Shown one piece after another: positions 1,219 to 22,553 of a DNA stretch of 22,730 nucleotides. A program made the position numbers and the translations under genes. Positions within the stretch are counted from its first letter, which is position 1, and the number at the start of each line of letters is the position of its first letter. Source of the DNA: a virus (lineage: Duplodnaviria > Heunggongvirae > Uroviricota > Caudoviricetes); the IMG/VR virus record IMGVR_UViG_2675903433_000018, positions 1 through 22,730 of that record; one strand, written 5' to 3'. The notes below the pieces were generated by a model. It saw only the letters and a program-made list of their open reading frames with translations. It was not told where the DNA came from and did not search any database.

Positions 1219-2027
1219 GCAAGATTGACTTTCAGGCACTGCGTGAAAAGGCAGAGAAAGCAACTAAAGGAAGCTACATCGTAGGGCATACATCTGTTAA
1301 CCAGCACGGCAATTTAACAGGAGTTTTTGTTTGTCAAAAATGGAAAGGAGAACCCGGTGGCGTAATTGCAGAATGTCACGTTAACTGCCTGGTTGAAACA
1401 GATGCTCAGGCTTATGCAAACGCTGAATTCATAGCAGAGGCCAATCCGGCTACCGTGCTGGCACTGCTGGATGAACGGGAAAGAAACCAGCAATACATCA
1501 AACGCCGCGACCAGGAGAACGAGGATATTGCTCTTACGGTTGGGAAGCTGAGAGTTGAGCTTGAGGAAGTAAAACAACACGCTGAAGAATTATCCGAAAC
1601 CAAGGCTGTTCGTAACCAATGGCGGCCAGATATTTGCCCAATAACCGGACGTGCATTTTTCATGTGGATTGAGCATCCAACATTGGGGAATGTGCCGACA
1701 TATGGTGGCCCATTAGATAGTTACACCATTCCAACAAAGGACGGTGACGGTGAGTTTTCATGTGAGCGTTACGATCATGATTTTGGCGGTTGGGTAGAAA
1801 GCGAATGTCTTGGGTTATATCTGATTGATGATAGAGAACAATGCAGGGTCTACGAACTGGAGGAACGCGTTAAGGAACTGGATGCTCGGGAAATATCGCT
1901 CCCGGAACGTAGCAGCATGCTTCATCGAACAGATTATCACGATGATTACCAAACGGTAATGGCATACAAAGTTTCTGAAGTCATCGCTGCAATCCGCGCC
2001 GCTGGCATTCGCATCAAAGGAGAGTGA
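1215..2027 (+). CDS. Ead/Ea22-like phage protein (family call from memory)
   Basis: AGGAGG RBS 7 nt upstream of GTG at 1215 (the ORF track starts at 1182, but 1215 is coupled to the upstream stop); coiled-coil middle and C-terminal region reminiscent of Ead/Ea22-like prophage proteins. Confidence 0.55.
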   Translation: MSKIDFQALREKAEKATKGSYIVGHTSVNQHGNLTGVFVCQKWKGEPGGVIAECHVNCLVETDAQAYANAEFIAEANPATVLALLDERERNQQYIKRRDQENEDIALTVGKLRVELEEVKQHAEELSETKAVRNQWRPDICPITGRAFFMWIEHPTLGNVPTYGGPLDSYTIPTKDGDGEFSCERYDHDFGGWVESECLGLYLIDDREQCRVYELEERVKELDAREISLPERSSMLHRTDYHDDYQTVMAYKVSEVIAAIRAAGIRIKGE

Positions 2028-2028
2028 T

Positions 2029-2646
2029 ATGAGCGCTATAACCAAAGAACGTATCAAATTATTCATTAAAAATCCGCTTGATAACGGACTTACTCGTGGC
2101 GAACAAATGGAACTGGCACGAATTGCACTGGCATCACTGGAACGCGAACAGATTCGCCACGAGCATGCCAAATGGTCTGACTCCACATTTGGCTGCGTTG
2201 GCCCCATTGGTCCGCTGAAACATCTCTCAAAAGAGGCACTGGAAGCCGCAGCCGAACCAGACGATCTTGGCGAGTGGGCTGATATGCAGTTTCTGTTGTG
2301 GGATGCACAGCGCCGTGCTGGCATCAGCGATGCTGAAATTACCGCTGCTATGGAAGATAAATTGAAGATCAACATGAAGCGCCAGTGGCCTGAACCAAAA
2401 GATGGTGAGCCTCGCTTGCACATTAAAGAACCCGGCAACTCTCCGGTAACTCCGGATGGTTGGATAAGCTGTAGTGAGCGAATGCCACCTCAAGATGATT
2501 GGATTTTAATTTATTCAAAGCACGGCGAGTATATGGCAGGACAGGTACAAGGGGAATACGTGGAGTTGAGCGACGGCACTTTATCGTGGTTAGGGAACGC
2601 CTTGTTCTGGATGCCGCTACCAGAACCGCCGCAGGAGGCGAAATGA
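2029..2646 (+). CDS. DUF551-like domain protein
   Basis: AAGGAG RBS before ATG at 2029; C-terminus WISCSERMPP…LFWMPLPEPP resembles the DUF551 signature common in enterobacterial phages. Confidence 0.6.
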   Translation: MSAITKERIKLFIKNPLDNGLTRGEQMELARIALASLEREQIRHEHAKWSDSTFGCVGPIGPLKHLSKEALEAAAEPDDLGEWADMQFLLWDAQRRAGISDAEITAAMEDKLKINMKRQWPEPKDGEPRLHIKEPGNSPVTPDGWISCSERMPPQDDWILIYSKHGEYMAGQVQGEYVELSDGTLSWLGNALFWMPLPEPPQEAK

Positions 2647-2903
2647 TGGATGTAAAAGAGAAGGTTTTGCAGGTGATGCGTTCCCGGGCTGCCCTGCAAG
2701 ATAAAGCTCTCGGCGGGGAATATCCATTCAGGATGGCAACCTGGAATCTGCGGTTGGCAATGGAGAAGGAATTTCCTGATGAAGAATGGCGTTCGGCAGA
2801 TTTGCGCAAAATTCTTATGGAGCTGGCTAAAGACGGAACAGTATCCAAAGATACCCATGCCAGCCGGATTGGTCAGGCGGTATGGAGACTGGAGGTGAGG
2901 TAA
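2643..2903 (+). CDS. Hypothetical small protein
   Basis: AGGAGG RBS, ATG at 2643 overlapping the upstream stop (ATGA); the long ORF-track entry from 2499 overlaps the preceding gene and is probably an over-extension. Confidence 0.5.
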   Translation: MMDVKEKVLQVMRSRAALQDKALGGEYPFRMATWNLRLAMEKEFPDEEWRSADLRKILMELAKDGTVSKDTHASRIGQAVWRLEVR

Positions 2904-3184
2904 TGGCTAACCTGCAACTTGCCGTTAAAGGTGAATACTTCGATGCCATGATTCGCGGGGAGAAAACGGAAGAGTATCGCCTGTGTAATGACTACTGGAA
3001 TAAGCGCCTCGTTAACTGTAAGTATGACCGCCTGATTATCACAAAGGGATATCCGAAGCGCGAAGACTTCAGTCGCAGAATTGACGTCCCGTATAACGGA
3101 TATGAAATAAAAACAATCACACATCCACACTTCGGTGATAAACCGGTAAAGGTGTTCGCGATAAAAGTGAAGATTAATAGCTAA
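2903..3184 (+). CDS. Hypothetical small protein
   Basis: GGAGGTGAGG RBS, ATG at 2903 overlapping the upstream stop (TAATG). Confidence 0.5.
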   Translation: MANLQLAVKGEYFDAMIRGEKTEEYRLCNDYWNKRLVNCKYDRLIITKGYPKREDFSRRIDVPYNGYEIKTITHPHFGDKPVKVFAIKVKINS

Positions 3185-3207
3185 ATTTCAATTAACACGG
3201 AGTAATT

Positions 3208-3501
3208 ATGTGGCGCGGTAATAATCATGGCGGAAGTCAGATGATACTTACCGAATATACGTTCGACCACAAAACCAATAAATCACGTTCAGTATATTTG
3301 CTTCGGCACAATAGCCGCGTAAGAAATACCGTTCTGGAGCAAAATCTGACCGTTGAAATGGATAATTTGGGAAACTTCAAGCCAACAATATCGCTTGATG
3401 ATTTTCCGTGTGGTTTAAGCGAAAGAGAAGCAATGCTGAAATTAGCAGAATGGCTACAAAGATTAAGCATTGCTATTGAAGATAACTGGCCTGAACCTTA
3501 A
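3208..3501 (+). CDS. Hypothetical small protein
   Basis: 97-aa ORF in the same plus-strand gene array; start could alternatively be the internal ATG at 3241. Confidence 0.45.
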   Translation: MWRGNNHGGSQMILTEYTFDHKTNKSRSVYLLRHNSRVRNTVLEQNLTVEMDNLGNFKPTISLDDFPCGLSEREAMLKLAEWLQRLSIAIEDNWPEP

Positions 3502-9408: not shown

Positions 9409-10602
9409 GTGACCTGGGACGATCACAAGAAGAATTTTGCTCGCCTGGCGCGAGATGGTGGTTACACCATCGCACAGTATGCCGCCGAGTTTAATCTTAA
9501 CCCTAATACCGCACGTCGTTATCTCCGTGCCTTCAAAGAAGACTCCAGGACTGCGGACAGCCGCAAGCCAAATAAGCCAGTCAGGAAGCCACTAAAAAGC
9601 ATGATCATTGATCACTCTAATGATCAACATGCAGGTGATCATATTGCGGCTGAAATAGCGGAAAAACAGAGAGTTAATGCCGTTATCAGTGCCGCAGTCG
9701 AGAATGCGAAGCGCCAAAATAAGCGCATAAATGATCGTTCAGATGATCATGACGTGATCACCCGCGCCCACCGGACCTTACGTGATCGCCTGGAACGCGA
9801 CACCCTGGATGATGATGGTGAACGCTTTGAATTCGAAGCTGGCGATTACCTGATAGATAACGTTGAAGCGCGGAAGGCCGCGCGCGCTATGTTGCGTCGG
9901 TCCGGGGCCGATGTTCTGGAAACCACTCTTCTTGAAAAGTCTCTTTCTCATCTCCTTATGCTGGAGAACGCCAGGGATACGTGTATTCGCCTGGTGCAGG
10001 AAATGCGCGATCAGCAAAAAGACGATGATGAAGGTACTCCGCCTGAATACCGTATCGCGAGCATGCTAAACAGCTGTTCCGCGCAGATAAGCAGTCTGAT
10101 CAACACCATTTACAGCATCCGGAATAACTATCGAAAAGAAAGCCGGGAGGCGGAAAAGCACGCTTTATCTATGGGGCAAGCTGGCATTGTTAAGCTGGCA
10201 TACGAACGAAAGCGTGAAAATAACTGGTCAGTGCTGGAAGCAGCTGAATTCATCGAGGCGCATGGTGGGAAAGTTCCGCCCCTGATGCTGGAGCAAATCA
10301 AAGCCGATCTGCGTGCTCCTAAGACCAATACCGATGATGAGGAAAGGCAAACAGCCGTCGGTGGCCCTTCTCTTGAAGATCTGGACAAAGTTGCGCGAGA
10401 ACGGGCCGCCAGCCGCCGCGCTGATGCCGCATTGTGGATTGAGCATCGTAGAGAAGAAATTGCCGATATCGTCGATACAGGTGGTTATGGTGATGTCGAT
10501 GCGGAAGGCATATCAAACGAAGCATGGCTTGAACAGGATCTGGACGAAAACGAGGAGGAAGACGAAGAAGTTACCCGCAAACTGTACGGGGATGATGATT
10601 AA
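9409..10602 (+). CDS. pacA: PacA, pac-cleavage terminase subunit
   Basis: 397-aa ORF starting GTG 9409 (MTWDDHKK…); contains the pac hexamer array internally; acidic C-terminus. Confidence 0.85.
9602..9760 (+). other. pac: pac packaging-initiation site: clusters of Dam-methylatable hexamers (4 x TGATCA, then TGATCG + 2 x TGATCA)
   Basis: TGATCA at 9602, 9609, 9621, 9636; TGATCG at 9732; TGATCA at 9744, 9755; this 4 + 3 layout inside pacA matches the P1 pac site. Confidence 0.8.
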
Positions 10603-12086
10603 TGGCCAGAAGTTGCGTAACGGACCCACGTTGGCGCGAGCTGGTGGCGCTATATCGTTATGACTGGATTGCGGCCGCTGATGTGTTGTTTGGGAAGACA
10701 CCAACCTGGCAGCAGGATGAGATCATTGAGTCCACGCAGCAGGACGGCAGTTGGACAAGTGTGACCTCCGGCCATGGTACTGGTAAGTCGGATATGACGA
10801 GTATCATTGCAATACTCTTCATCATGTTTTTCCCCGGCGCTCGCGTTATTCTGGTCGCTAACAAAAGACAGCAAGTCCTTGATGGTATTTTCAAATACAT
10901 AAAGAGCAATTGGGCTACTGCTGTTAGCAGATTCCCGTGGTTGTCGAAGTATTTCATTCTTACAGAAACGTCTTTTTTTGAGGTGACTGGCAAGGGTGTT
11001 TGGACAATATTGATAAAGTCCTGTCGCCCCGGAAATGAGGAGGCGTTGGCTGGTGAACACGCCGATCATCTCTTGTATATCATCGACGAAGCGTCGGGTG
11101 TGAGTGATAAAGCATTCAGTGTGATAACAGGTGCGCTGACCGGTAAGGATAACCGTATTCTGCTTCTTTCCCAGCCTACGCGACCTTCAGGCTATTTCTA
11201 CGATTCACACCACAGACTAGCTATTCGCCCGGGAAATCCTGATGGATTGTTTACTGCGATAATACTGAATAGTGAAGAATCTCCGCTTGTAGATGCAAAA
11301 TTTATACGAGCAAAACTTGCGGAGTATGGCGGTCGTGATAACCCCATGTACATGATCAAAGTACGTGGTGAATTTCCCAAATCTCAAGATGGCTTTCTTC
11401 TTGGTCGTGATGAGGTTGAGCGGGCGACGCGGCGAAAGGTCAAGATTGCCAAAGGATGGGGCTGGGTTGCATGTGTTGACGTTGCTGGTGGCACAGGACG
11501 AGATAAGTCCGTTATTAATATCATGATGGTGTCCGGCCAGCGAAATAAACGCCGTGTAATCAACTATCGTATGCTGGAATACACAGACGTTACAGAAACG
11601 CAGTTAGCCGCCAAGATTTTCGCAGAATGTAACCCAGAACGGTTCCCGAACATAACCATAGCTATTGATGGCGATGGCTTGGGGAAATCGACGGCTGATC
11701 TGATGTACGAACGCTATGGTATTACCGTCCAGCGTATCCGCTGGGGTAAAAAGATGCACAGCCGTGAAGATAAAAGCCTTTATTTCGATATGCGCGCTTT
11801 CGCGAATATTCAGGCGGCAGAAGCTGTAAAATCAGGGCGTATGCGGCTTGATAAGGGGGCTGCGACTATAGAGGAAGCATCAAAGATACCGGTAGGGATA
11901 AATTCCGCAGGTCAATGGAAGGTGATGTCAAAGGAAGATATGAAGAAAAAACTCAACCTGCACTCACCGGACCATTGGGATACATATTGTTTCGCTATGT
12001 TGGCGAACTATGTTCCCCAAGATGAAGTGCTTAGCGTCGAAGACGAAGCGCAGGTTGATGAAGCTCTGGCATGGCTTAATGAATGA
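10602..12086 (+). CDS. pacB: PacB, large terminase subunit
   Basis: 494-aa ORF, ATG overlapping the pacA stop (TAATG); size and position match P1 PacB. Confidence 0.85.
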
Positions 12087-12089
12087 ATA

Positions 12090-12106
12090 TTTGCTCTAAT
12101 AAATTG
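12090..12106 (+). promoter_or_regulatory. C1-operator-like 17-mer immediately after pacB, overlapping a candidate promoter
   Basis: TTTGCTCTAATAAATTG (15/17 to remembered consensus); followed by TTGTGT-17-TACATT (12104-12132). Confidence 0.45.
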
Positions 12107-12138
12107 TGTTTTTTAACTACCGATGTTACATTGAGCCT

Positions 12139-12259
12139 GACCTCTTGCGCCTTGAGGCATTTTCGGTTTATGCTTATCAGGCACCTCATTAAAACGGGTG
12201 CCGGGATTGGCCTCCCGCTTAAGTCTAAGGCGATACAGACGCCGCTCGCGTCTTTTTTT
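12139..12259 (+). ncRNA. Putative small structured RNA (c4-like antisense repressor candidate) ending at an intrinsic terminator
   Basis: Candidate promoter upstream; nested hairpins (GCCTGA…TCAGGC enclosing CCTC…GAGG); ends at GACGC-cgctc-GCGTC + T7 (12238-12259); contains ATTGGCCTCC, complementary to the downstream RBS region, and a copy of GTCTAAGG. Confidence 0.3.
12238..12259 (+). terminator. Rho-independent terminator
   Basis: GACGC-cgctc-GCGTC followed by TTTTTTT. Confidence 0.6.
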
Positions 12260-12424
12260 GTATCGGCGTACACGCACACCTCTACAATGGTGGGCTGTAT
12301 GGGGCTACCTTCGGGTAGGCTGGTTACCTTGGACGCCAGTAAGGCCAACTCCGTACAGTCCACCGCCAGCAAGATTGGTCTCTTCTGCGGTGGTTACATA
12401 CCAACGTCTAAGGAGGCTGCCAAT

Positions 12425-12646
12425 ATGGCTACTATCCCTACCCCAACTCATCCTGAATTTATCTGGCGCTTTTACTCCTGCCAAAAACGTCACTATCACT
12501 TCGTTATTGCACCAACAGAAGATGAGGCTCGCTCTCAGCTTCCTGACGCCCCATGTATTTTCTCTGCCCGTTTTTCCACTGATTCACGCAATTCTCTCAG
12601 TTACTGGTGCCTCCCTGTTAACGCTTCTGCTCAGGAGGGACTATGA
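12425..12646 (+). CDS. Small 73-aa protein translationally coupled to the antirepressor gene (icd-like by position and size)
   Basis: AAGGAGG RBS 8 nt upstream of ATG 12425; stop overlaps the ant start (ATGA); the longer ORF-track entries 12083-12646 and 12198-12668 run across the terminator and are unlikely to be real. Confidence 0.55.
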   Translation: MATIPTPTHPEFIWRFYSCQKRHYHFVIAPTEDEARSQLPDAPCIFSARFSTDSRNSLSYWCLPVNASAQEGL

Positions 12647-13761
12647 GAACGTCATTAGTCACCCGTGAAGAGATGATCGAGGCAATTGAACAGCACACAA
12701 TCTGTATCAGCACCAGGGATATACCTGGCGTTATTGCCAACTACTTCATGATCACCAAACAACTTTACCGGAGAAAGGACAAGAACGCGGTTCACCGTAT
12801 CCTGTTGTCTGATATCCGCGAATACCTGCTCGAACAGGGTCATCTGAATTACGCAACCGTCGCAGCCGAAGCACGCAAGGAGGCACACAGAATGAAAGCA
12901 AATAACGTTAAATTAGAAAAAATTCATGCACCTTCAGTTCAGGAATCGGAGCTGGTGGTTGTTCAGAATCAGTCTGATGAAATTCCCGTTCTGGAATGGC
13001 AGGGAGTGCGTGTAGTGACAACCGAGACTCTTGCGAGAGGGTATGGGACAGAAACAATCCGTATTCGCCAAAATCATCATGAGAACAAAGTACGCTTTGT
13101 TGAAGGGAAGCACTTTTTCAAAGTTGAAGGAGAATCATTGCGCGAGTTGAAGCACAGAGTAGCTTTAAACTACTCTGTAAAAATTGCTCGCAATGTTCGC
13201 TCACTCACCCTCTGGACAGAACGCGGCGCAGCCCGCCACGCTAAAATGCTCGAAACCGATCAGGCATGGGCATTCTTTGAAAAACTGGAAGACAGCTACT
13301 TCCGGCAAAAAGAACAGCAACCGGTTGCAATCCCCCAGACGCTTCCAGAAGCTCTGCGCCTGGCTGCCGAACTGGCTGAACAAAAGCAACTTCTGGAACA
13401 GAAAGCCCACCAGCTAAATCAGCAGCTGGTGGCCGCCGCTCCTAAGGTCGATTTTGCCGACCGGGTATCAGTGGCCAAGGGGATCCTGATTGGGAATTTT
13501 GCAAAGGTTGTTGGACTTAAGCAAAACGCGCTGTTTGTCTGGTTACGGGAGAACGGCATCCTGATAGCGTCCGGTGGACGTAAAAATGTGCCGTTCCAGC
13601 AGTACATCAACGCGGGGTATTTCACGGTGAAAGAAGTGGTGCTGGATGATGAAGATGGCTACCAGATACGGTTGACGCCTCAATTAACGGGTAAAGGCCA
13701 GCAGTGGTTGACGCGTAAACTGCTCGATGCTGGCTTGTTAAAACCGGTGGCGGCTGAATAA
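12643..13761 (+). CDS. ant: Phage antirepressor (ORF6N/BRO-N-like central domain plus KilAC/Ant C-terminal domain), Ant1-like
   Basis: 372-aa ORF; central region (VLEWQGVRVVTTETLARGYG…KHFFKVEGESL…) resembles the AntA/ORF6N domain and the C-terminus (…NVPFQQYINAGYFTVKEV…TPQLTGKGQQWL…) resembles KilAC/Ant; AGGAGG RBS. Confidence 0.7.
   Translation: MRTSLVTREEMIEAIEQHTICISTRDIPGVIANYFMITKQLYRRKDKNAVHRILLSDIREYLLEQGHLNYATVAAEARKEAHRMKANNVKLEKIHAPSVQESELVVVQNQSDEIPVLEWQGVRVVTTETLARGYGTETIRIRQNHHENKVRFVEGKHFFKVEGESLRELKHRVALNYSVKIARNVRSLTLWTERGAARHAKMLETDQAWAFFEKLEDSYFRQKEQQPVAIPQTLPEALRLAAELAEQKQLLEQKAHQLNQQLVAAAPKVDFADRVSVAKGILIGNFAKVVGLKQNALFVWLRENGILIASGGRKNVPFQQYINAGYFTVKEVVLDDEDGYQIRLTPQLTGKGQQWLTRKLLDAGLLKPVAAE
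12892..13761 (+). CDS. In-frame internal start giving a shorter antirepressor isoform (Ant2-like)
   Basis: AAGGAGG RBS 8 nt upstream of in-frame ATG 12892 (MKANNVKL…), giving a 289-aa product; P1 ant is described as producing two in-frame products. Confidence 0.4.
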   Translation: MKANNVKLEKIHAPSVQESELVVVQNQSDEIPVLEWQGVRVVTTETLARGYGTETIRIRQNHHENKVRFVEGKHFFKVEGESLRELKHRVALNYSVKIARNVRSLTLWTERGAARHAKMLETDQAWAFFEKLEDSYFRQKEQQPVAIPQTLPEALRLAAELAEQKQLLEQKAHQLNQQLVAAAPKVDFADRVSVAKGILIGNFAKVVGLKQNALFVWLRENGILIASGGRKNVPFQQYINAGYFTVKEVVLDDEDGYQIRLTPQLTGKGQQWLTRKLLDAGLLKPVAAE

Positions 13762-13769
13762 TGGAAGAA

Positions 13770-13791
13770 TGCCCGGTTGATGCCGGGCATA
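13770..13791. terminator. Hairpin between convergent ant and c1 (bidirectional terminator candidate)
   Basis: ATGCCCGG-ttgat-GCCGGGCAT in the 32-bp gap between the two stop codons. Confidence 0.45.
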
Positions 13792-13793
13792 AT

Positions 13794-14645
13794 TTATTGC
13801 GCGCTTTCGGGGTTGTCGTTTACTGGCTGCCCCTTCTTGGTTTTACGGCTGCGCGCAACTGATGCGGCTGACTTAACCTTTTTCTCTTCGCGAGTGATGG
13901 CAATTTGTTTTTTTACATTTTCAATATCTGCCAGGCGATATATTTTTGCCTGCGGCCAGCGGTCGCAGATGATCGGTTCTATAGAGTCATAAAGGCTAAA
14001 TTTTGCTTTCTCGAATTCACCGTTGATGATGATTCCATCACGGAGAGTTTCATCGCAGATAAACACACCACACAGCGGCACATGGTAACTAACTGATTTA
14101 CCATCATTGTAGTTAGGGCTACTGGAAATGTAATGGACGCGCAGCATTGTTTCGCTAAAGCCGTGTACACGCATACGGAATTTTTCATCCTCCGGGTACT
14201 GCTTCATTAGCTCTTTTGTTGCTTCCAGGTTCTCTATGTATTTCGCACTGTGCTCATTGATCCCCGCGCTTTTCTGGATGCGAATGTCCTTATCAATCAG
14301 ATGAATAATGCGGCCAGCGGTCATGTTGACGCTGTTCACAGCTTCTGTCTGATAAGTTGTAACCTTACGCACACCGCGAAGGATGTTAGGCACTGGATAT
14401 AAAATAGTCTTTGGGATATTGAGGTCTGGGTACTGTTCCAGTTCCCGCGCCATTAAAGTCCATTTATCAATTTCAGCCTGAATGCTGTCCGTTTCTTTGA
14501 ACGGCAGAACGACAACCGGGCGTACAGGACGACCGTCGCTGGCGGCATCAACGTGTTGGGCGCGTGCAACAGCTTTTTTTAGAAAGAGATCCCTGAAGCT
14601 GACGAACTCCTGGTACAGTTGTTCGCCGTAGACATAATTTATCAT
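13794..14645 (-). CDS. c1: C1 repressor of lysogeny
   Basis: 283-aa product (MINYVYGEQLYQEFVSFRDLFLKK…) matches P1 C1 from memory; GGAGGAGG RBS. Confidence 0.9.
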   Translation of the reverse strand: MINYVYGEQLYQEFVSFRDLFLKKAVARAQHVDAASDGRPVRPVVVLPFKETDSIQAEIDKWTLMARELEQYPDLNIPKTILYPVPNILRGVRKVTTYQTEAVNSVNMTAGRIIHLIDKDIRIQKSAGINEHSAKYIENLEATKELMKQYPEDEKFRMRVHGFSETMLRVHYISSSPNYNDGKSVSYHVPLCGVFICDETLRDGIIINGEFEKAKFSLYDSIEPIICDRWPQAKIYRLADIENVKKQIAITREEKKVKSAASVARSRKTKKGQPVNDNPESAQ

Positions 14646-15568: not shown

Positions 15569-15790
15569 ATGGGATATTCAGCTGCTAAAGTGTCCACTCA
15601 TCTTGAGCTTGAGAAAAACCGTGGTTACTGGCGGGCAAAATGGTTTGAGCGTGATAGTTACCAACTGTCATTATCTCGCGGTGAAGAGAAAATAGAACGC
15701 ACGCGCGGTCGCTGGCGTTTCTATGACGAGAACCATAACCAGGTAAAGGCAGAGCCAATCCTGTACACTCTGCTGAAAACAATAATTTAA
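15569..15790 (+). CDS. Hypothetical small basic protein between loxP and cra
   Basis: 73-aa ORF with GAGGTG RBS; Arg/Trp-rich. Confidence 0.45.
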   Translation: MGYSAAKVSTHLELEKNRGYWRAKWFERDSYQLSLSRGEEKIERTRGRWRFYDENHNQVKAEPILYTLLKTII

Positions 15791-15809: not shown

Positions 15810-16205
15810 ATGTTTAATGGCCTGACAGATGCCAAGGTAAACGCCTTACTGAACGACGCAAAACAAAAAGCTGCTAACCCTGGAACGAATGAAAATGAAC
15901 GTGCTATGGCTGTTGCAATTTGGGAGTTAGCAGAAGAAGTAAAGCGAAACCGCTTACTATACACTCGGGTTTACCAGCAATTTGATGGTGCGAGCTGGAT
16001 AGATATCGAAGAGGCTGAATATGCAACATGCAAAAAAGAAAAAAAGATTGTTCGGATTTTGCATAAAGCAGCAACCCCAATCACTGTAGAAATCCCCGAT
16101 CACAGATATTTCGAGAACGATGATCTACCAGGGGATGTGATTCGAATTATTGATGAGATACTTCATGAACAAGGCTTAACTGTTAAAATCACGCATAATA
16201 AATGA
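15810..16205 (+). CDS. cra: Cre-associated protein (cra-like), translationally coupled to cre
   Basis: 131-aa ORF, GAGGTGA RBS; stop overlaps the cre ATG (ATGA). Confidence 0.55.
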   Translation: MFNGLTDAKVNALLNDAKQKAANPGTNENERAMAVAIWELAEEVKRNRLLYTRVYQQFDGASWIDIEEAEYATCKKEKKIVRILHKAATPITVEIPDHRYFENDDLPGDVIRIIDEILHEQGLTVKITHNK

Positions 16206-17233
16206 CTAATTCGTTAACCGTTCACCAAAATTTGCCTGCATTGCCGGTCGATGCAACGAGTGATGAGGTTCGCAAGAACCTGATGGACATGTTCAGGGAT
16301 CGCCAGGCGTTTTCTGATCATACCTGGAAAATGCTTCTGTCCGTTTGCCGGTCGTGGGCGGCATGGTGCAAGTTGAATAACCGGAAATGGTTTCCCGCAG
16401 AACCTGAAGATGTTCGCGATTACCTTCTATATCTTCAGGCGCGTGGTCTGGCAGTAAAAACTATCCAGCAACATTTGGGCCAGCTAAACATGCTTCATCG
16501 TCGGTCCGGGCTGCCACGACCAAGTGACAGCAATGCTGTTTCACTGGTCATGCGACGGATCCGAAAAGAAAACGTTGATGCCGGTGAGCGTGCAAAACAG
16601 GCGCTGGCGTTCGAACGCACTGATTTCGACCAGGTTCGTTCACTCATGGAAAATAGCGATCGCTGCCAGGATATACGTAATCTGGCATTTCTGGGGATTG
16701 CTTATAACACCCTGTTACGTATAGCCGAAATTTCTAGGATCAGGGTTAAAGATATCTCACGTACTGACGGTGGGAGAATGTTAATCCATATTGGCAGAAC
16801 GAAAACGCTGGTTAGCACCGCTGGTGTAGAGAAGGCACTTAGCCTGGGGGTAACTAAACTGGTTGAGCGATGGATTTCTGTCTCTGGTGTAGCTGATGAT
16901 CCGAATAACTACCTGTTTTGCCGCGTCAGAAAAAATGGTGTTGCCGCGCCATCATCCACCAGCCAGCTATCAACTCGCGCCCTGGAAGGGATTTTTGAAG
17001 CAACTCACCGATTGATTTACGGGGCAAAAGATGACTCTGGTCAGCGATACCTGGCCTGGTCTGGACATAGTGCCCGTGTCGGTGCCGCGCGAGATATGGC
17101 CCGCGCCGGAGTTTCAATACCGGAGATCATGCAAGCTGGTGGCTGGACCAACGTAAATATTGTCATGAACTACATTCGTAACCTGGATAGTGAAACGGGG
17201 GCAATGGTGCGCCTGCTGGAAGATGGCGATTAG
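16202..17233 (+). CDS. cre: Cre tyrosine recombinase
   Basis: 343-aa product nearly identical to canonical Cre (MTNSLTVHQNLPALPVDATSDEVRKNLMDMFRDRQAF…LLEDGD); a few substitutions relative to my remembered reference (S2T, L4S, E to D in …AFS[E/D]HTWK…, A to S in …IAEI[A/S]RIR…, A to S in …APS[A/S]TSQL…). Confidence 0.97.
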   Translation: MTNSLTVHQNLPALPVDATSDEVRKNLMDMFRDRQAFSDHTWKMLLSVCRSWAAWCKLNNRKWFPAEPEDVRDYLLYLQARGLAVKTIQQHLGQLNMLHRRSGLPRPSDSNAVSLVMRRIRKENVDAGERAKQALAFERTDFDQVRSLMENSDRCQDIRNLAFLGIAYNTLLRIAEISRIRVKDISRTDGGRMLIHIGRTKTLVSTAGVEKALSLGVTKLVERWISVSGVADDPNNYLFCRVRKNGVAAPSSTSQLSTRALEGIFEATHRLIYGAKDDSGQRYLAWSGHSARVGAARDMARAGVSIPEIMQAGGWTNVNIVMNYIRNLDSETGAMVRLLEDGD

Positions 17234-19519: not shown

Positions 19520-19764
19520 GTTTTCTCTCCAGCCTGTGCCAAGGCTTTGACGTCGAAATTATGTCCTATTCGGTTTTATTGTATCAGATAGTGTGGACAT
19601 ATTATTTCACGTCCGGCGTAGTCGGTCATAGCTTTTGCCTTCCACCTTTTCCACGCCGTATCTAATCGGCGCCCGATGAAATGTTATTGCACTAATATAT
19701 TTCAATATTTCGCTGACACTTGAACAGCGAAACACCCCCATAGATAGCTTGTTCATTGGTAATC

Positions 19765-19790
19765 CTTAACAAGTGACTAGTGTTAAATTC
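19765..19790 (+). promoter_or_regulatory. Putative Lpa-dependent late promoter element upstream of the portal-like gene
   Basis: AACAAGTGACTAGTGTTAAAT, same AAGTGACT core as at 18443, followed by a TAAAT -10-like element. Confidence 0.35.
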
Positions 19791-19822
19791 CGTTCAAACA
19801 CGATGCGAATTATTCTAATTAA

Positions 19823-22553
<2,731 letters not shown>

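What the first reader, a model, noticed from the sequence alone, without database searches (positions are those of the whole stretch)
12090..13791. An immI-like cassette (small RNA, icd-like ORF, ant1/ant2) sits between pacB and c1
Seen in sequence: between the pacB stop (12086) and the convergent c1 gene there is about 1.7 kb holding a C1-operator-like site with a candidate promoter, an intrinsic terminator, a structured leader, a 73-aa ORF with a strong RBS, and a 372-aa antirepressor-type protein with an in-frame internal start that also has a strong RBS. That architecture resembles the P1 immI operon (c4 RNA, icd, ant1/ant2) as I remember it. From memory, P1 immI lies tens of kb from immC, next to kilA-repL, and pacB and c1 are close neighbours. 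If so, this element has relocated or acquired an extra antirepressor module into the immC neighbourhood, juxtaposing repressor and antirepressor in convergent orientation.
Basis: partly seen in the sequence, partly recalled or inferred. Interest (0 to 1): 0.8.

Follow-up and report, generated by a model that had tools for sequence, protein, structure and literature searches.

The report
Second RNA-gated antirepressor operon beside c1
This P1-like phage-plasmid carries, between its packaging gene pacB and its master repressor gene c1, a complete extra copy of the "immI" antirepressor switch with its own antisense-RNA key; the cassette is real and looks functional, but about half of natural P1 relatives have it and it has been noted before.

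Summary
P1 and P7 have 24 bp between the pacB and c1 stop codons; this window has 1,707 bp (12087-13793).

The insert is collinear with the P1 immI operon:
- a C1-operator-like site overlapping a promoter
- an a1/b1 leader RNA with an intrinsic terminator (Rfam isrK, 60.8 bits)
- a C4 antisense RNA (Rfam, 75.9 bits)
- a2/b2 target sites on the icd ribosome-binding site
- a 73-aa Icd homologue (80% identical to P1 Icd, dN/dS 0.02-0.09)
- a 372-aa Ant (ORF6N + KilAC) with the conserved internal ant2 start

It is an extra module, not a relocated one: phages carrying it (673R5, RCS47, JL22) keep the canonical immI. Its recognition loops differ from those of P1 and P7. Across 52 pacB-adjacent copies there are five a/b combinations, each matched among leader, C4 and target.

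It is not rare. 290 PLSDB plasmids carry it, against 593 with pacB, and 257 of 5,426 complete E. coli genomes do. RefSeq annotates its proteins, and Venturini 2019 noted the insertion. What I found nowhere are its RNA components, its allelic keys and its isrK-type leader.

Verdict: an ordinary but under-described immI paralogue, of moderate interest.

The parts
10602..12086 (+). pacB (terminase large subunit), left flank of the insert
   Evidence: ORF of 494 aa; 98.6% identical to the P1 pacA-pacB region. The P1 pacB stop aligns with 12084-12086.
12090..12106 (+). C1-operator-like site TTTGCTCTAATAAATTG (counterpart of P1 Op51/Oc4)
   Evidence: 2 mismatches to ATTGCTCTAATAAATTT; 9 such sites in the window against 0.06 expected. 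It aligns with the annotated P1 and P7 c4 operators. The core is present in the pacB-adjacent cassettes inspected. Absent from the P1 pacB-c1 junction.
12104..12132 (+). Candidate promoter overlapping the operator (-35 TTGTGT 12104-12109, 17-nt spacer, -10 TACATT 12127-12132); positional counterpart of P1 P2c4/P51a
   Evidence: Aligned with the annotated P1 P2c4 hexamers. Weak match to consensus and not picked up by the generic scan. Inferred by homology only.
12145..12174 (+). Second candidate promoter (-35 TTGCGC, 18-nt spacer, -10 TATGCT); counterpart of P1 P1c4/P51b. The predicted start near 12181 is position 1 of the isrK model.
   Evidence: Aligned with the P1 TTGACC/TATAGT hexamers. The isrK model starts at 12181. 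Inferred.
12181..12258 (+). isrK-family leader RNA carrying a1 (TTGGCCT, 12207-12213) and b1 (GTCTAAGG, 12223-12230), ending in an intrinsic terminator (hairpin 12237-12253 + T7)
   Evidence: Rfam RF01394, 60.8 bits (gathering score 50), E 5e-11; terminator. The equivalent P1 stretch matches Rfam c4-a1b1 (51 bits) and isrK weakly (35 bits). a1/b1 co-vary with a'/b' across alleles.
12283..12370 (+). C4-type antisense RNA. Recognition elements: b' CCTTGGAC (12327-12334, hairpin loop) and a' AGGCCAA (12342-12348, junction).
   Evidence: Rfam RF01695, 75.9 bits (gathering score 45), E 1.7e-13. 17-bp closing stem; 12 of 23 predicted pairs show compensatory changes among 13 distinct C4 sequences.
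12375..12416 (+). C4 target region on the mRNA: a2 TTGGTCT (12375-12381), b2 GTCTAAGG (12406-12413), overlapping the icd Shine-Dalgarno AAGGAGG (12410-12416)
   Evidence: In-register complementarity of 7/7 + 8/8 (one G-U each) to a'/b'; non-cognate alleles give 8-14 of 15. Same layout as the annotated P1 a2/b2.
12425..12646 (+). icd-like gene, 73 aa; its stop overlaps the ant start (ATGA)
   Evidence: 80% identical to P1 Icd. NCBIfam phage_ICD_like, 49.8 bits. 13 synonymous against 1 non-synonymous difference to the RCS47 allele, dN/dS 0.02. Intact in 76 of 80 loci.
12643..13761 (+). ant1-like antirepressor, 372 aa: Ant1-type N-terminus, ORF6N central domain (aa 116-202), KilAC C-terminal domain (aa 260-361)
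   Evidence: Pfam ORF6N 69.8 bits and ANT/KilAC 107.8 bits. 56% identical to P1 Ant1 overall; by segment 63% (aa 1-83), 18% (aa 111-205), 77% (aa 206-372). Most of the 79 IMG/VR loci match over the full length.
12892..13761 (+). ant2-like nested in-frame product (start at M84, SD AAGGAGG 12877-12883)
   Evidence: Aligns with the annotated P1/P7 ant2 start. The SD...ATG block is invariant in the window, RCS47, JL22, P1 and P7.
13769..13790 (.). 9-bp G+C-rich hairpin between the ant stop and the c1 stop; candidate (possibly bidirectional) terminator
   Evidence: Terminator-like hit. It replaces the 24-bp P1 spacer.
13794..14645 (-). c1 repressor gene, right flank, convergent with ant
   Evidence: 283 aa, 281/283 identical to P1 C1.100.

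Best explanation
The insert is a complete, functional paralogue of the P1 immI operon. It gives this phage-plasmid a second antirepressor switch with its own RNA key.

Shown by sequence and comparison:
- A C1-operator-like site overlaps the first of two candidate promoters.
- The transcript first makes an isrK-type leader carrying decoy sites a1/b1 and ending in an intrinsic terminator.
- Read-through RNA contains a C4-type structured RNA. Its two exposed elements, a' and b', are complementary to a1/b1 in the leader and to a2/b2 in front of icd. b2 overlaps the icd Shine-Dalgarno sequence.
- icd overlaps ant (ATGA), and ant carries the conserved nested ant2 start.

Inferred from P1 immI biology (as summarised in the P1 GenBank annotation) and from my own knowledge of Citron & Schuster 1990/1992 and Heinrich et al. 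1994/1995:
- C4 is processed out of the transcript and pairs with a2/b2. This blocks icd translation and, through coupling, ant expression, so the lysogen stays repressed.
- When C4 is absent or does not match, Icd and Ant1/Ant2 are made and Ant inactivates C1.
- The recognition loops here (AGGCCAA / CCUUGGAC) differ from those of P1, P7 and the other alleles at this site. The module should therefore be blind to C4 RNAs of other specificity.
- The consequence would be that a phage carrying it escapes the immunity of P1-like lysogens that lack the same key, while a lysogen carrying it is protected against phages with the same key.

By analogy with Gifsy-1 IsrK, the terminated leader RNA probably tunes the switch by pairing with the C4 loops, in cis in the read-through RNA and possibly in trans.
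For: - Collinearity with P1/P7 immI from operator to ant stop (alignment A2; annotation).
- Rfam C4 at 75.9 bits and isrK at 60.8 bits, both above their gathering scores. The P1 leader matches c4-a1b1 at the same position.
- Three-way co-variation. Five a/b combinations among 52 pacB-adjacent cassettes, plus at least eight combinations with P1-type leaders. In all of them a1/a'/a2 and b2/b' match. b1 also matches in the five isrK-type alleles, P1 and P7; it was misaligned in A3 for the other P1-type leaders.
- Cognate pairing is 15/15 in register; non-cognate is 8-14/15.
- The window C4 favours its own target by 5-9 kcal/mol, comparable to the 6-7 kcal/mol separating P1 from P7.
- C4 stem: 12 of 23 pairs with compensatory changes.
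- The minimum-energy fold of 12181-12440 pairs a1/b1 with a'/b' in cis, z = -3.7.
- icd is under strong purifying selection, dN/dS 0.02-0.09.
- Ant is full length in most of 79 IMG/VR loci. The ant2 SD/ATG is invariant.
- The C1 operator has 2 mismatches against 0.06 chance sites per window. C1 itself is 99% identical to P1 C1.
- Phages with the cassette keep their canonical immI.
Against: - No expression, processing or binding data exist for this cassette.
- Both promoters are weak matches, found only by alignment to P1; the generic scan did not find them.
- The central third of Ant is an ORF6N domain unrelated to that of P1 Ant1 (18% identity), so binding to C1 is an extrapolation.
- The crude duplex-energy matrix does not separate RCS47-type C4 from the window target (-26.2 against -26.3 kcal/mol). 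Heteroimmunity between neighbouring alleles is therefore not assured.
- The window does not include the rest of the genome. That this particular element also has a canonical immI is inferred from relatives.
Confidence: 0.78

Rival explanations
1. The module is an IsrK-type positive switch, as in Salmonella Gifsy-1. The decisive regulator would be the short terminated leader RNA. Acting in trans on the read-through mRNA, it opens the structure and turns on icd/ant translation. C4 would then be mainly a cis-structural element rather than a trans repressor.
For: - The leader scores above the isrK gathering score, unlike the P1 leader (60.8 against 35 bits).
- It has a strong intrinsic terminator.
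- The predicted fold pairs the leader with the C4 loops in cis, resembling 'structure A' of the isrK-orf45-anrP RNA (PMC4825925).
- The same paper notes a processed C4/CI-like RNA (STnc1160) complementary to IsrK.
Against: - a2/b2 on the icd ribosome-binding site co-vary with a'/b' just as tightly as a1/b1 do. That is what a trans-repressor model predicts, and a pure leader-activator model does not require it.
- The P1 and P7 systems, with the same layout, are experimentally repressor systems (P1 annotation).
- The two models are not exclusive.
Confidence: 0.3
2. The antirepressor made by this cassette does not act on the element's own C1. It would act on another repressor, for example that of a co-resident prophage, or have another activity altogether. 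The module would then be a cross-talk or competition weapon or a moron, rather than part of P1 immunity.
For: - The central domain is a different fold family (ORF6N) and is hypervariable between alleles: 54-63% identity against 95-99% in the flanks.
- The same leader-icd unit is coupled to a Rha-type Ant in phage D6.
- Similar leader-icd stretches occur in chromosomal elements.
- Gifsy-1 AnrP acts on another regulator.
Against: - The N-terminal 83 aa (63%) and the C-terminal 167 aa (77%) match P1 Ant1, and the ant2 nested start is conserved.
- The module is controlled by a C1-type operator and sits next to c1.
- The central domain of the canonical Ant1 is also the variable part between P1 and P7 (67%), although both are annotated as acting on C1.
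Confidence: 0.15
3. The cassette is a redundant, decaying duplicate with no function.
For: - P1 and P7 do without it.
- A few copies are disrupted: IS1203 in NC_013370 and a truncated leader in L027.
Against: - Intact in the great majority of copies.
- icd dN/dS is 0.02-0.09.
- Matched compensatory changes in three separate RNA elements across five alleles.
- dS to P1 icd is about 1.8, so it is old yet preserved.
Confidence: 0.04

Closest known systems
Phage P1/P7 immI operon (Op51-P51a/b, a1/b1, c4 RNA, a2/b2, icd, ant1/ant2)
   Same: Same order and spacing of every part. The operator-to-C4 distance is about 198 nt here and 203 nt in P1. The C4 fold, the two-site recognition logic, the b2 site over the icd SD, the 73-aa Icd (80% identity), the icd/ant ATGA overlap, the nested ant2 start and the KilAC C-terminus all match.
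   Different: - Location: between pacB and c1 instead of between sim and kilA-repL.
- The leader belongs to the Rfam isrK family rather than c4-a1b1.
- The C4 stem sequences and both recognition loops differ.
- The central Ant domain is ORF6N, unrelated to that of Ant1.
- The icd genes are anciently diverged (dS about 1.8), whereas the ant 3' end is 86% identical, so the cassette is mosaic.
Salmonella Gifsy-1 isrK-orf45-anrP locus (Hershko-Shalev et al. 2016, PMC4825925)
   Same: An isrK-family RNA with its own terminator is followed on the read-through transcript by a C4/CI-like processed RNA and an antirepressor gene whose translation depends on an upstream small ORF. The leader is complementary to the downstream RNA.
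   Different: Here a separate 73-aa icd gene follows C4. In Gifsy-1, orf45 starts only about 30 nt after the isrK terminator, which is where C4 lies here. This module is under a C1 operator on a P1-type plasmid prophage. No experimental data exist for it.
Satellite phage P4 immunity (seqA - CI RNA - seqC)
   Same: A processed structured RNA pairs with two complementary sites, one upstream and one downstream of itself, on the same transcript. The isrK paper calls IsrK a structural homologue of SeqA. Leader-like stretches in E. coli chromosomes are annotated 'ash family | Icd-like'.
   Different: P4 CI acts by transcription termination on replication genes, not on an antirepressor. No protein homology to Ant was examined.
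Second c4/icd regions already noted in plasmid prophages: RCS47 'ant', pTZ20_1P, pSvP1 RD-1, D6-like pYU39_89
   Same: The same insertion between pacB and c1 is annotated in RCS47 and remarked on for pTZ20_1P. Icd-ant homologues at another site are reported in pSvP1. A second antisense-RNA/icd region is noted in D6-like plasmids (PMC6906374; PMC6799933).
   Different: Those reports are annotation-level remarks ('two short hypothetical orfs and ant'). The papers I could search do not describe the C4 and isrK-type RNAs, the operator, the matched target sites or the allelic specificities.

Membership tests
P1-type immI operon | C1 operator overlapping the upstream promoter | tested here: met
   12090-12106 matches 15/17 of the consensus and aligns with P1/P7 Op51. 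Chance expectation is 0.06 sites per window.
P1-type immI operon | C4 antisense RNA with the family's fold | tested here: met
   Rfam RF01695, 75.9 bits against a gathering score of 45. 12 of 23 pairs show compensatory changes.
P1-type immI operon | Two C4 elements (a', b') complementary to a2/b2 in front of icd, with b2 over the ribosome-binding site | tested here: met
   7/7 + 8/8 in-register pairs. b2 (12406-13) overlaps the SD (12410-16). The sites co-vary across five alleles at this site and across P1/P7 types.
P1-type immI operon | Upstream duplicate target sites a1/b1 in the leader | tested here: met
   a1 at 12207-13 and b1 at 12223-30, matched to a'/b' in every allele at this site.
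P1-type immI operon | icd (73 aa) overlapping the start of ant | tested here: met
   80% identical to P1 Icd; NCBIfam phage_ICD_like; ATGA overlap at 12643-46.
P1-type immI operon | ant1 with nested in-frame ant2 | tested here: met
   M84 with AAGGAGG; the block is invariant with P1/P7 ant2.
P1-type immI operon | Map position between sim and kilA-repL | tested here: not met
   It lies between pacB and c1. The canonical locus is elsewhere in relatives. It is therefore a paralogue, not the immI locus itself.
P1-type immI operon | C4 released by RNase P processing; Ant1/Ant2 bind and inactivate C1 | not testable with these tools
   Needs RNA mapping and protein-binding experiments.
Rfam isrK (RF01394) | Covariance-model score at or above the gathering threshold, with a 3' intrinsic terminator | tested here: met
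   60.8 bits against 50; hairpin + T7.
Rfam isrK (RF01394) | Short form activates translation of its own read-through mRNA in trans | not testable with these tools
   Only the cis pairing of the leader with the C4 loops is predicted.
Phage antirepressor, KilAC (PF03374) with ORF6N (PF10543) | Both Pfam domains above their gathering scores | tested here: met
   107.8 and 69.8 bits.
'Ash family protein' (Pfam PF10554; PGAP name for this stretch) | A conserved protein-coding frame | tested here: not met
   The HMM hits the translation of 12185-12460 (44.5 bits), and PGAP calls a pseudogene there. The frame is open only in the window-type allele; every other allele has a stop 6-11 codons before the icd ATG. 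The stretch is covered by the two RNA families.

The most novel reading that the evidence does not exclude
P1-like phage-plasmids may run several mutually blind RNA-keyed antirepressor locks at once: the canonical immI, this pacB-c1 module, and in some elements a third module near cre. The keys are built combinatorially from interchangeable a and b loops: at least 3 x 3 variants at this site with 5 combinations seen, and at least 2 x 5 variants among P1-type leaders. If so, this diversity is the product of an immunity arms race among co-circulating phage-plasmids. The extra module would let its carrier break the immunity of any lysogen lacking the same key. The isrK-type leader would act as a built-in sponge for C4, which would also explain mechanistically how Gifsy-1 IsrK activates its target.
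Probability: 0.45. Interest if true: 0.6.

Novelty: new member of a known kind. Interest (0 to 1): 0.38.

Why it matters
P1 is the textbook model for plasmid prophage immunity, and P1-like phage-plasmids are common carriers of resistance genes in E. coli. The laboratory references P1 and P7 lack a module that roughly half of natural relatives carry. Models of lysis-lysogeny control, superinfection immunity and prophage induction built on P1 may therefore miss a second antirepressor input.

The matched, combinatorially varying RNA keys give a directly testable map of which elements should be immune to which. The analysis also shows that current genome annotation mislabels the two RNA genes as an 'ash family' pseudogene.

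Tried and rejected
- Generic promoter scan. It found neither candidate promoter. They rest only on alignment to the annotated P1 promoters and are marked as inferred.
- Duplex-energy matrix with loop-plus-flank segments. The diagonal is lowest or tied lowest in every row, but RCS47-type C4 against the window target scores as well as the cognate pair. I replaced it with in-register pair counts and do not claim heteroimmunity between all alleles.
- The 187-aa ORF 12083-12646 with its Pfam Phage_ASH hit. Rejected as a gene because the frame is closed in all other alleles.
- PADLOC. Only weak domain-level hits of the ORF6N region to candidate PDC-S05 (E 1e-5). Not taken as evidence of a defence function.
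- Classical P1 immI papers and the RCS47 paper (PMC312442, PMC196329, PMC4249366). Not held. The mechanism is cited from the P1 GenBank annotation and my own knowledge.
- Full-text searches for a described 'second immI' or c4 in P1-like elements. Only annotation-level remarks were found.
- Many fetched loci were not copied to the Python sandbox. I worked around this through alignments.
- Protein database searches, structure prediction and fold search were not used, because they would not change the verdict.
Full report
**What is there**

The window is a P1-type (Punavirus) plasmid-prophage segment. It carries pacA (9409-10602), pacB (10602-12086) and, on the minus strand, c1 (13794-14645). The flanks are 98.6-98.8% identical to P1 and P7. 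Those references align in two pieces that skip 12087-13793.

In P1 the pacB stop and the c1 stop are 24 bp apart. An alignment of the junctions places both ends of the 1,707-bp insert exactly at the two stop codons. C1 itself is 281/283 identical to P1 C1.100.

**Anatomy of the insert**

From left to right:
- A C1-operator-like 17-mer lies at 12090-12106, with 2 mismatches to the consensus. The window holds 9 sites with <=3 mismatches against 0.06 expected by chance.
- Two weak promoter candidates align with the annotated P1 promoters P2c4 and P1c4. A generic scan did not find them.
- An RNA at 12181-12258 matches the Rfam isrK family (60.8 bits, gathering score 50). It ends in a hairpin plus T7 terminator.
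- A C4 antisense RNA lies at 12283-12370 (75.9 bits, gathering score 45).
- A 73-aa ORF at 12425-12646 has AAGGAGG upstream. It is 80% identical to P1 Icd and matches NCBIfam phage_ICD_like.
- A 372-aa ORF at 12643-13761 overlaps it by ATGA. It has Pfam ORF6N and KilAC domains.
- The internal ATG at 12892, with its AAGGAGG, aligns with the annotated ant2 start of P1 and P7. That block is invariant across the five sequences compared.
- A 9-bp G+C-rich hairpin at 13769-13790 separates ant from c1.

Aligned with P1 and P7 immI from operator to ant start, the cassette is collinear throughout.

**The RNA logic**

In P1 the annotated C4 targets are a1/b1 upstream of c4 and a2/b2 in front of icd. The window has the same four sites, with different sequences:

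| Element | Sequence | Coordinates |
|---|---|---|
| a1 | TTGGCCT | 12207-13 |
| b1 | GTCTAAGG | 12223-30 |
| b' (C4 hairpin loop) | CCTTGGAC | 12327-34 |
| a' (C4 junction) | AGGCCAA | 12342-48 |
| a2 | TTGGTCT | 12375-81 |
| b2 (overlaps the icd SD) | GTCTAAGG | 12406-13 |

I gathered 79 related loci from IMG/VR with the Ant protein and aligned their leaders. Of these, 52 are pacB-adjacent, and all 52 have the isrK-type leader. They fall into five a/b combinations:

| a variant | b variant | Copies | Example |
|---|---|---|---|
| GGCCT | GTCTAAGG | 21 | this window |
| GAGAC | GCAAAAGG | 14 | JL22 |
| GAGAC | GTCAAAGG | 8 | RCS47 |
| GGAAC | GCAAAAGG | 8 | L032 |
| GGAAC | GTCAAAGG | 3 | L060 |

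In every combination a1, a' and a2 match each other, and so do b1, b' and b2. Cognate pairing is 15/15 in register; non-cognate pairing is 8-14/15.

None of these keys coincides with those on P1-type leaders: P1, P7 and further b variants GTACATG, ACTTACG and ACGAATG.

The three C4 backbones (window type, RCS47/JL22 type, P1/P7 type) keep a 17-bp stem through compensatory changes, seen in 12 of 23 predicted pairs.

The minimum-energy fold of 12181-12440 pairs a1/b1 with a'/b' in cis (z = -3.7). This resembles the inactive 'structure A' described for the Gifsy-1 isrK-orf45-anrP transcript (PMC4825925).

The P1 leader matches Rfam c4-a1b1 (51 bits) and, at the same place, isrK weakly (35 bits). 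The isrK-type element here is therefore the a1/b1 leader.

**Proteins**

icd is under strong purifying selection. Against the RCS47 allele there are 13 synonymous and 1 non-synonymous differences (dN/dS 0.02). dN/dS to P1 icd is 0.09, with dS about 1.8.

Ant identity, by segment:

| Segment (aa) | Window vs P1 Ant1 | Among cassette alleles | P1 vs P7 |
|---|---|---|---|
| 1-83 | 63% | 95-98% | 98% |
| 111-205 (ORF6N here) | 18% | 54-63% | 67% |
| 206-372 | 77% | 98-99% | 98% |

The central domain is thus hypervariable in both paralogues. At the DNA level only the last ~335 nt of ant resemble P1 (86%). The module is therefore an old, mosaic paralogue, not a recent duplication.

**Extra, not relocated**

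vB_EcoM-673R5 (cassette 98.4% identical to the window's), JL22 and RCS47 each also carry a full canonical immI at the usual place. Some IMG/VR contigs hold three modules: canonical, pacB-c1, and one with a P1-type leader next to cre.

**How common, and what was known**

- In PLSDB, 290 plasmids hold >=80% of the cassette and 593 hold pacB. The first figure may include a few copies at other sites.
- 257 of 5,426 complete E. coli genomes hold the leader-icd-ant 5' part.
- RefSeq annotates 'Icd-like' and 'KilAC antirepressor' there, and labels the RNA stretch as an incomplete 'ash family protein'.
- RCS47 is annotated with 'ant' at this site.
- Venturini et al. 2019 wrote that 'two short hypothetical orfs and ... 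ant are found inserted ... between pacB and c1, as in ... RCS47'.
- A D6-like plasmid paper noted a second antisense-RNA/icd region.
- I found no description of the C4 and isrK-type RNAs, the operator, the matched targets or the allelic keys of this module.

**Mechanism**

The shown and inferred steps are set out under the best explanation. In short, C1 and a cognate C4 keep icd and ant silent. Without the matching C4, Icd and Ant1/Ant2 are made and Ant is expected to inactivate C1. A distinct key makes the module independent of the canonical immI and of other alleles. The leader probably modulates C4 availability.

The main uncertainties are:
- whether this ORF6N-containing Ant binds C1
- how discriminating neighbouring keys are
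- the activity of the promoters

**Verdict**

The feature is a widespread, already noticed but functionally undescribed paralogue of a well-known system. Interest is moderate.

Noticed in passing
window 12170-12460 (+): Pfam Phage_ASH (44.5 bits) matches the translation of the isrK + C4 RNA stretch, and RefSeq PGAP annotates an incomplete 'ash family protein' there. The reading frame is open only in this allele; all other alleles have a stop 6-11 codons before the icd ATG. The 'Ash family' signal here therefore looks like translated RNA genes.
   Followed up: yes
L022, L025, L029, L038-L040, L043, L044, L047, L050, L062-L064, L071, L074 (IMG/VR loci), about 550 nt upstream of ant: Cassettes with the same ORF6N-type Ant also sit at other sites in P1-like contigs, for example convergent with cre in L038. 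These carry a P1-type leader and a palindromic bivalent operator (ATTGCTCTAATAAATTTGATTTATTAGAGCAAAT), with further b keys GTACATG, ACTTACG and ACGAATG. Some contigs hold two or three modules.
   Followed up: partly
window 12973-13257 (Ant aa 111-205): The central (ORF6N) domain of Ant is hypervariable between cassette alleles: 54-63% identity against 95-99% in the flanks. The corresponding part of canonical Ant1 is also the variable part between P1 and P7 (67% against 96-98%). The cause is unexplained; it may reflect partner specificity or recombination.
   Followed up: partly
L010 (phage D6, NC_050154) 1523-3400, minus strand: D6 has a second module with an isrK-type leader and a C4 carrying the JL22-type key (GAGAC / GCAAAAGG). 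It is followed by an Icd-like gene and a Rha-type rather than ORF6N/KilAC antirepressor. The leader-C4-icd unit is therefore combined with different antirepressors.
   Followed up: partly
window 15810-16205 (+): A 131-aa ORF lies between cra (15569-15790) and cre (16202-17233) and overlaps the cre start by ATGA. In vB_EcoM-673R5, cra and cre are only 8 bp apart. The ORF has no Pfam or PADLOC match.
   Followed up: partly
window 19686-22553 (+): After cre, c8, ref and mat, where my recollection of the P1 map places res and mod, there are two ORFs of 569 and 349 aa with no Pfam or PADLOC hit. They are preceded by a C1-operator-like site (19686-19702, 2 mismatches). They may be an uncharacterised accessory or defence cargo under C1 control.
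   Followed up: partly
E. coli chromosomes, e.g. NZ_CP009859.1 4285984-4286284 (hit H147): Stretches 83-89% identical to the leader/C4 part (window about 12164-12466) occur on chromosomes and are annotated 'ash family protein | Icd-like'. The same RNA switch unit therefore circulates outside P1-like plasmids.
   Followed up: no
NC_013370.1 93308-96327 (hit H87; locus L012): In the E. coli O111:H- 11128 P1-like plasmid the cassette is interrupted by an IS1203-family element. The same plasmid carries a second ORF6N-type module (L074).
   Followed up: no
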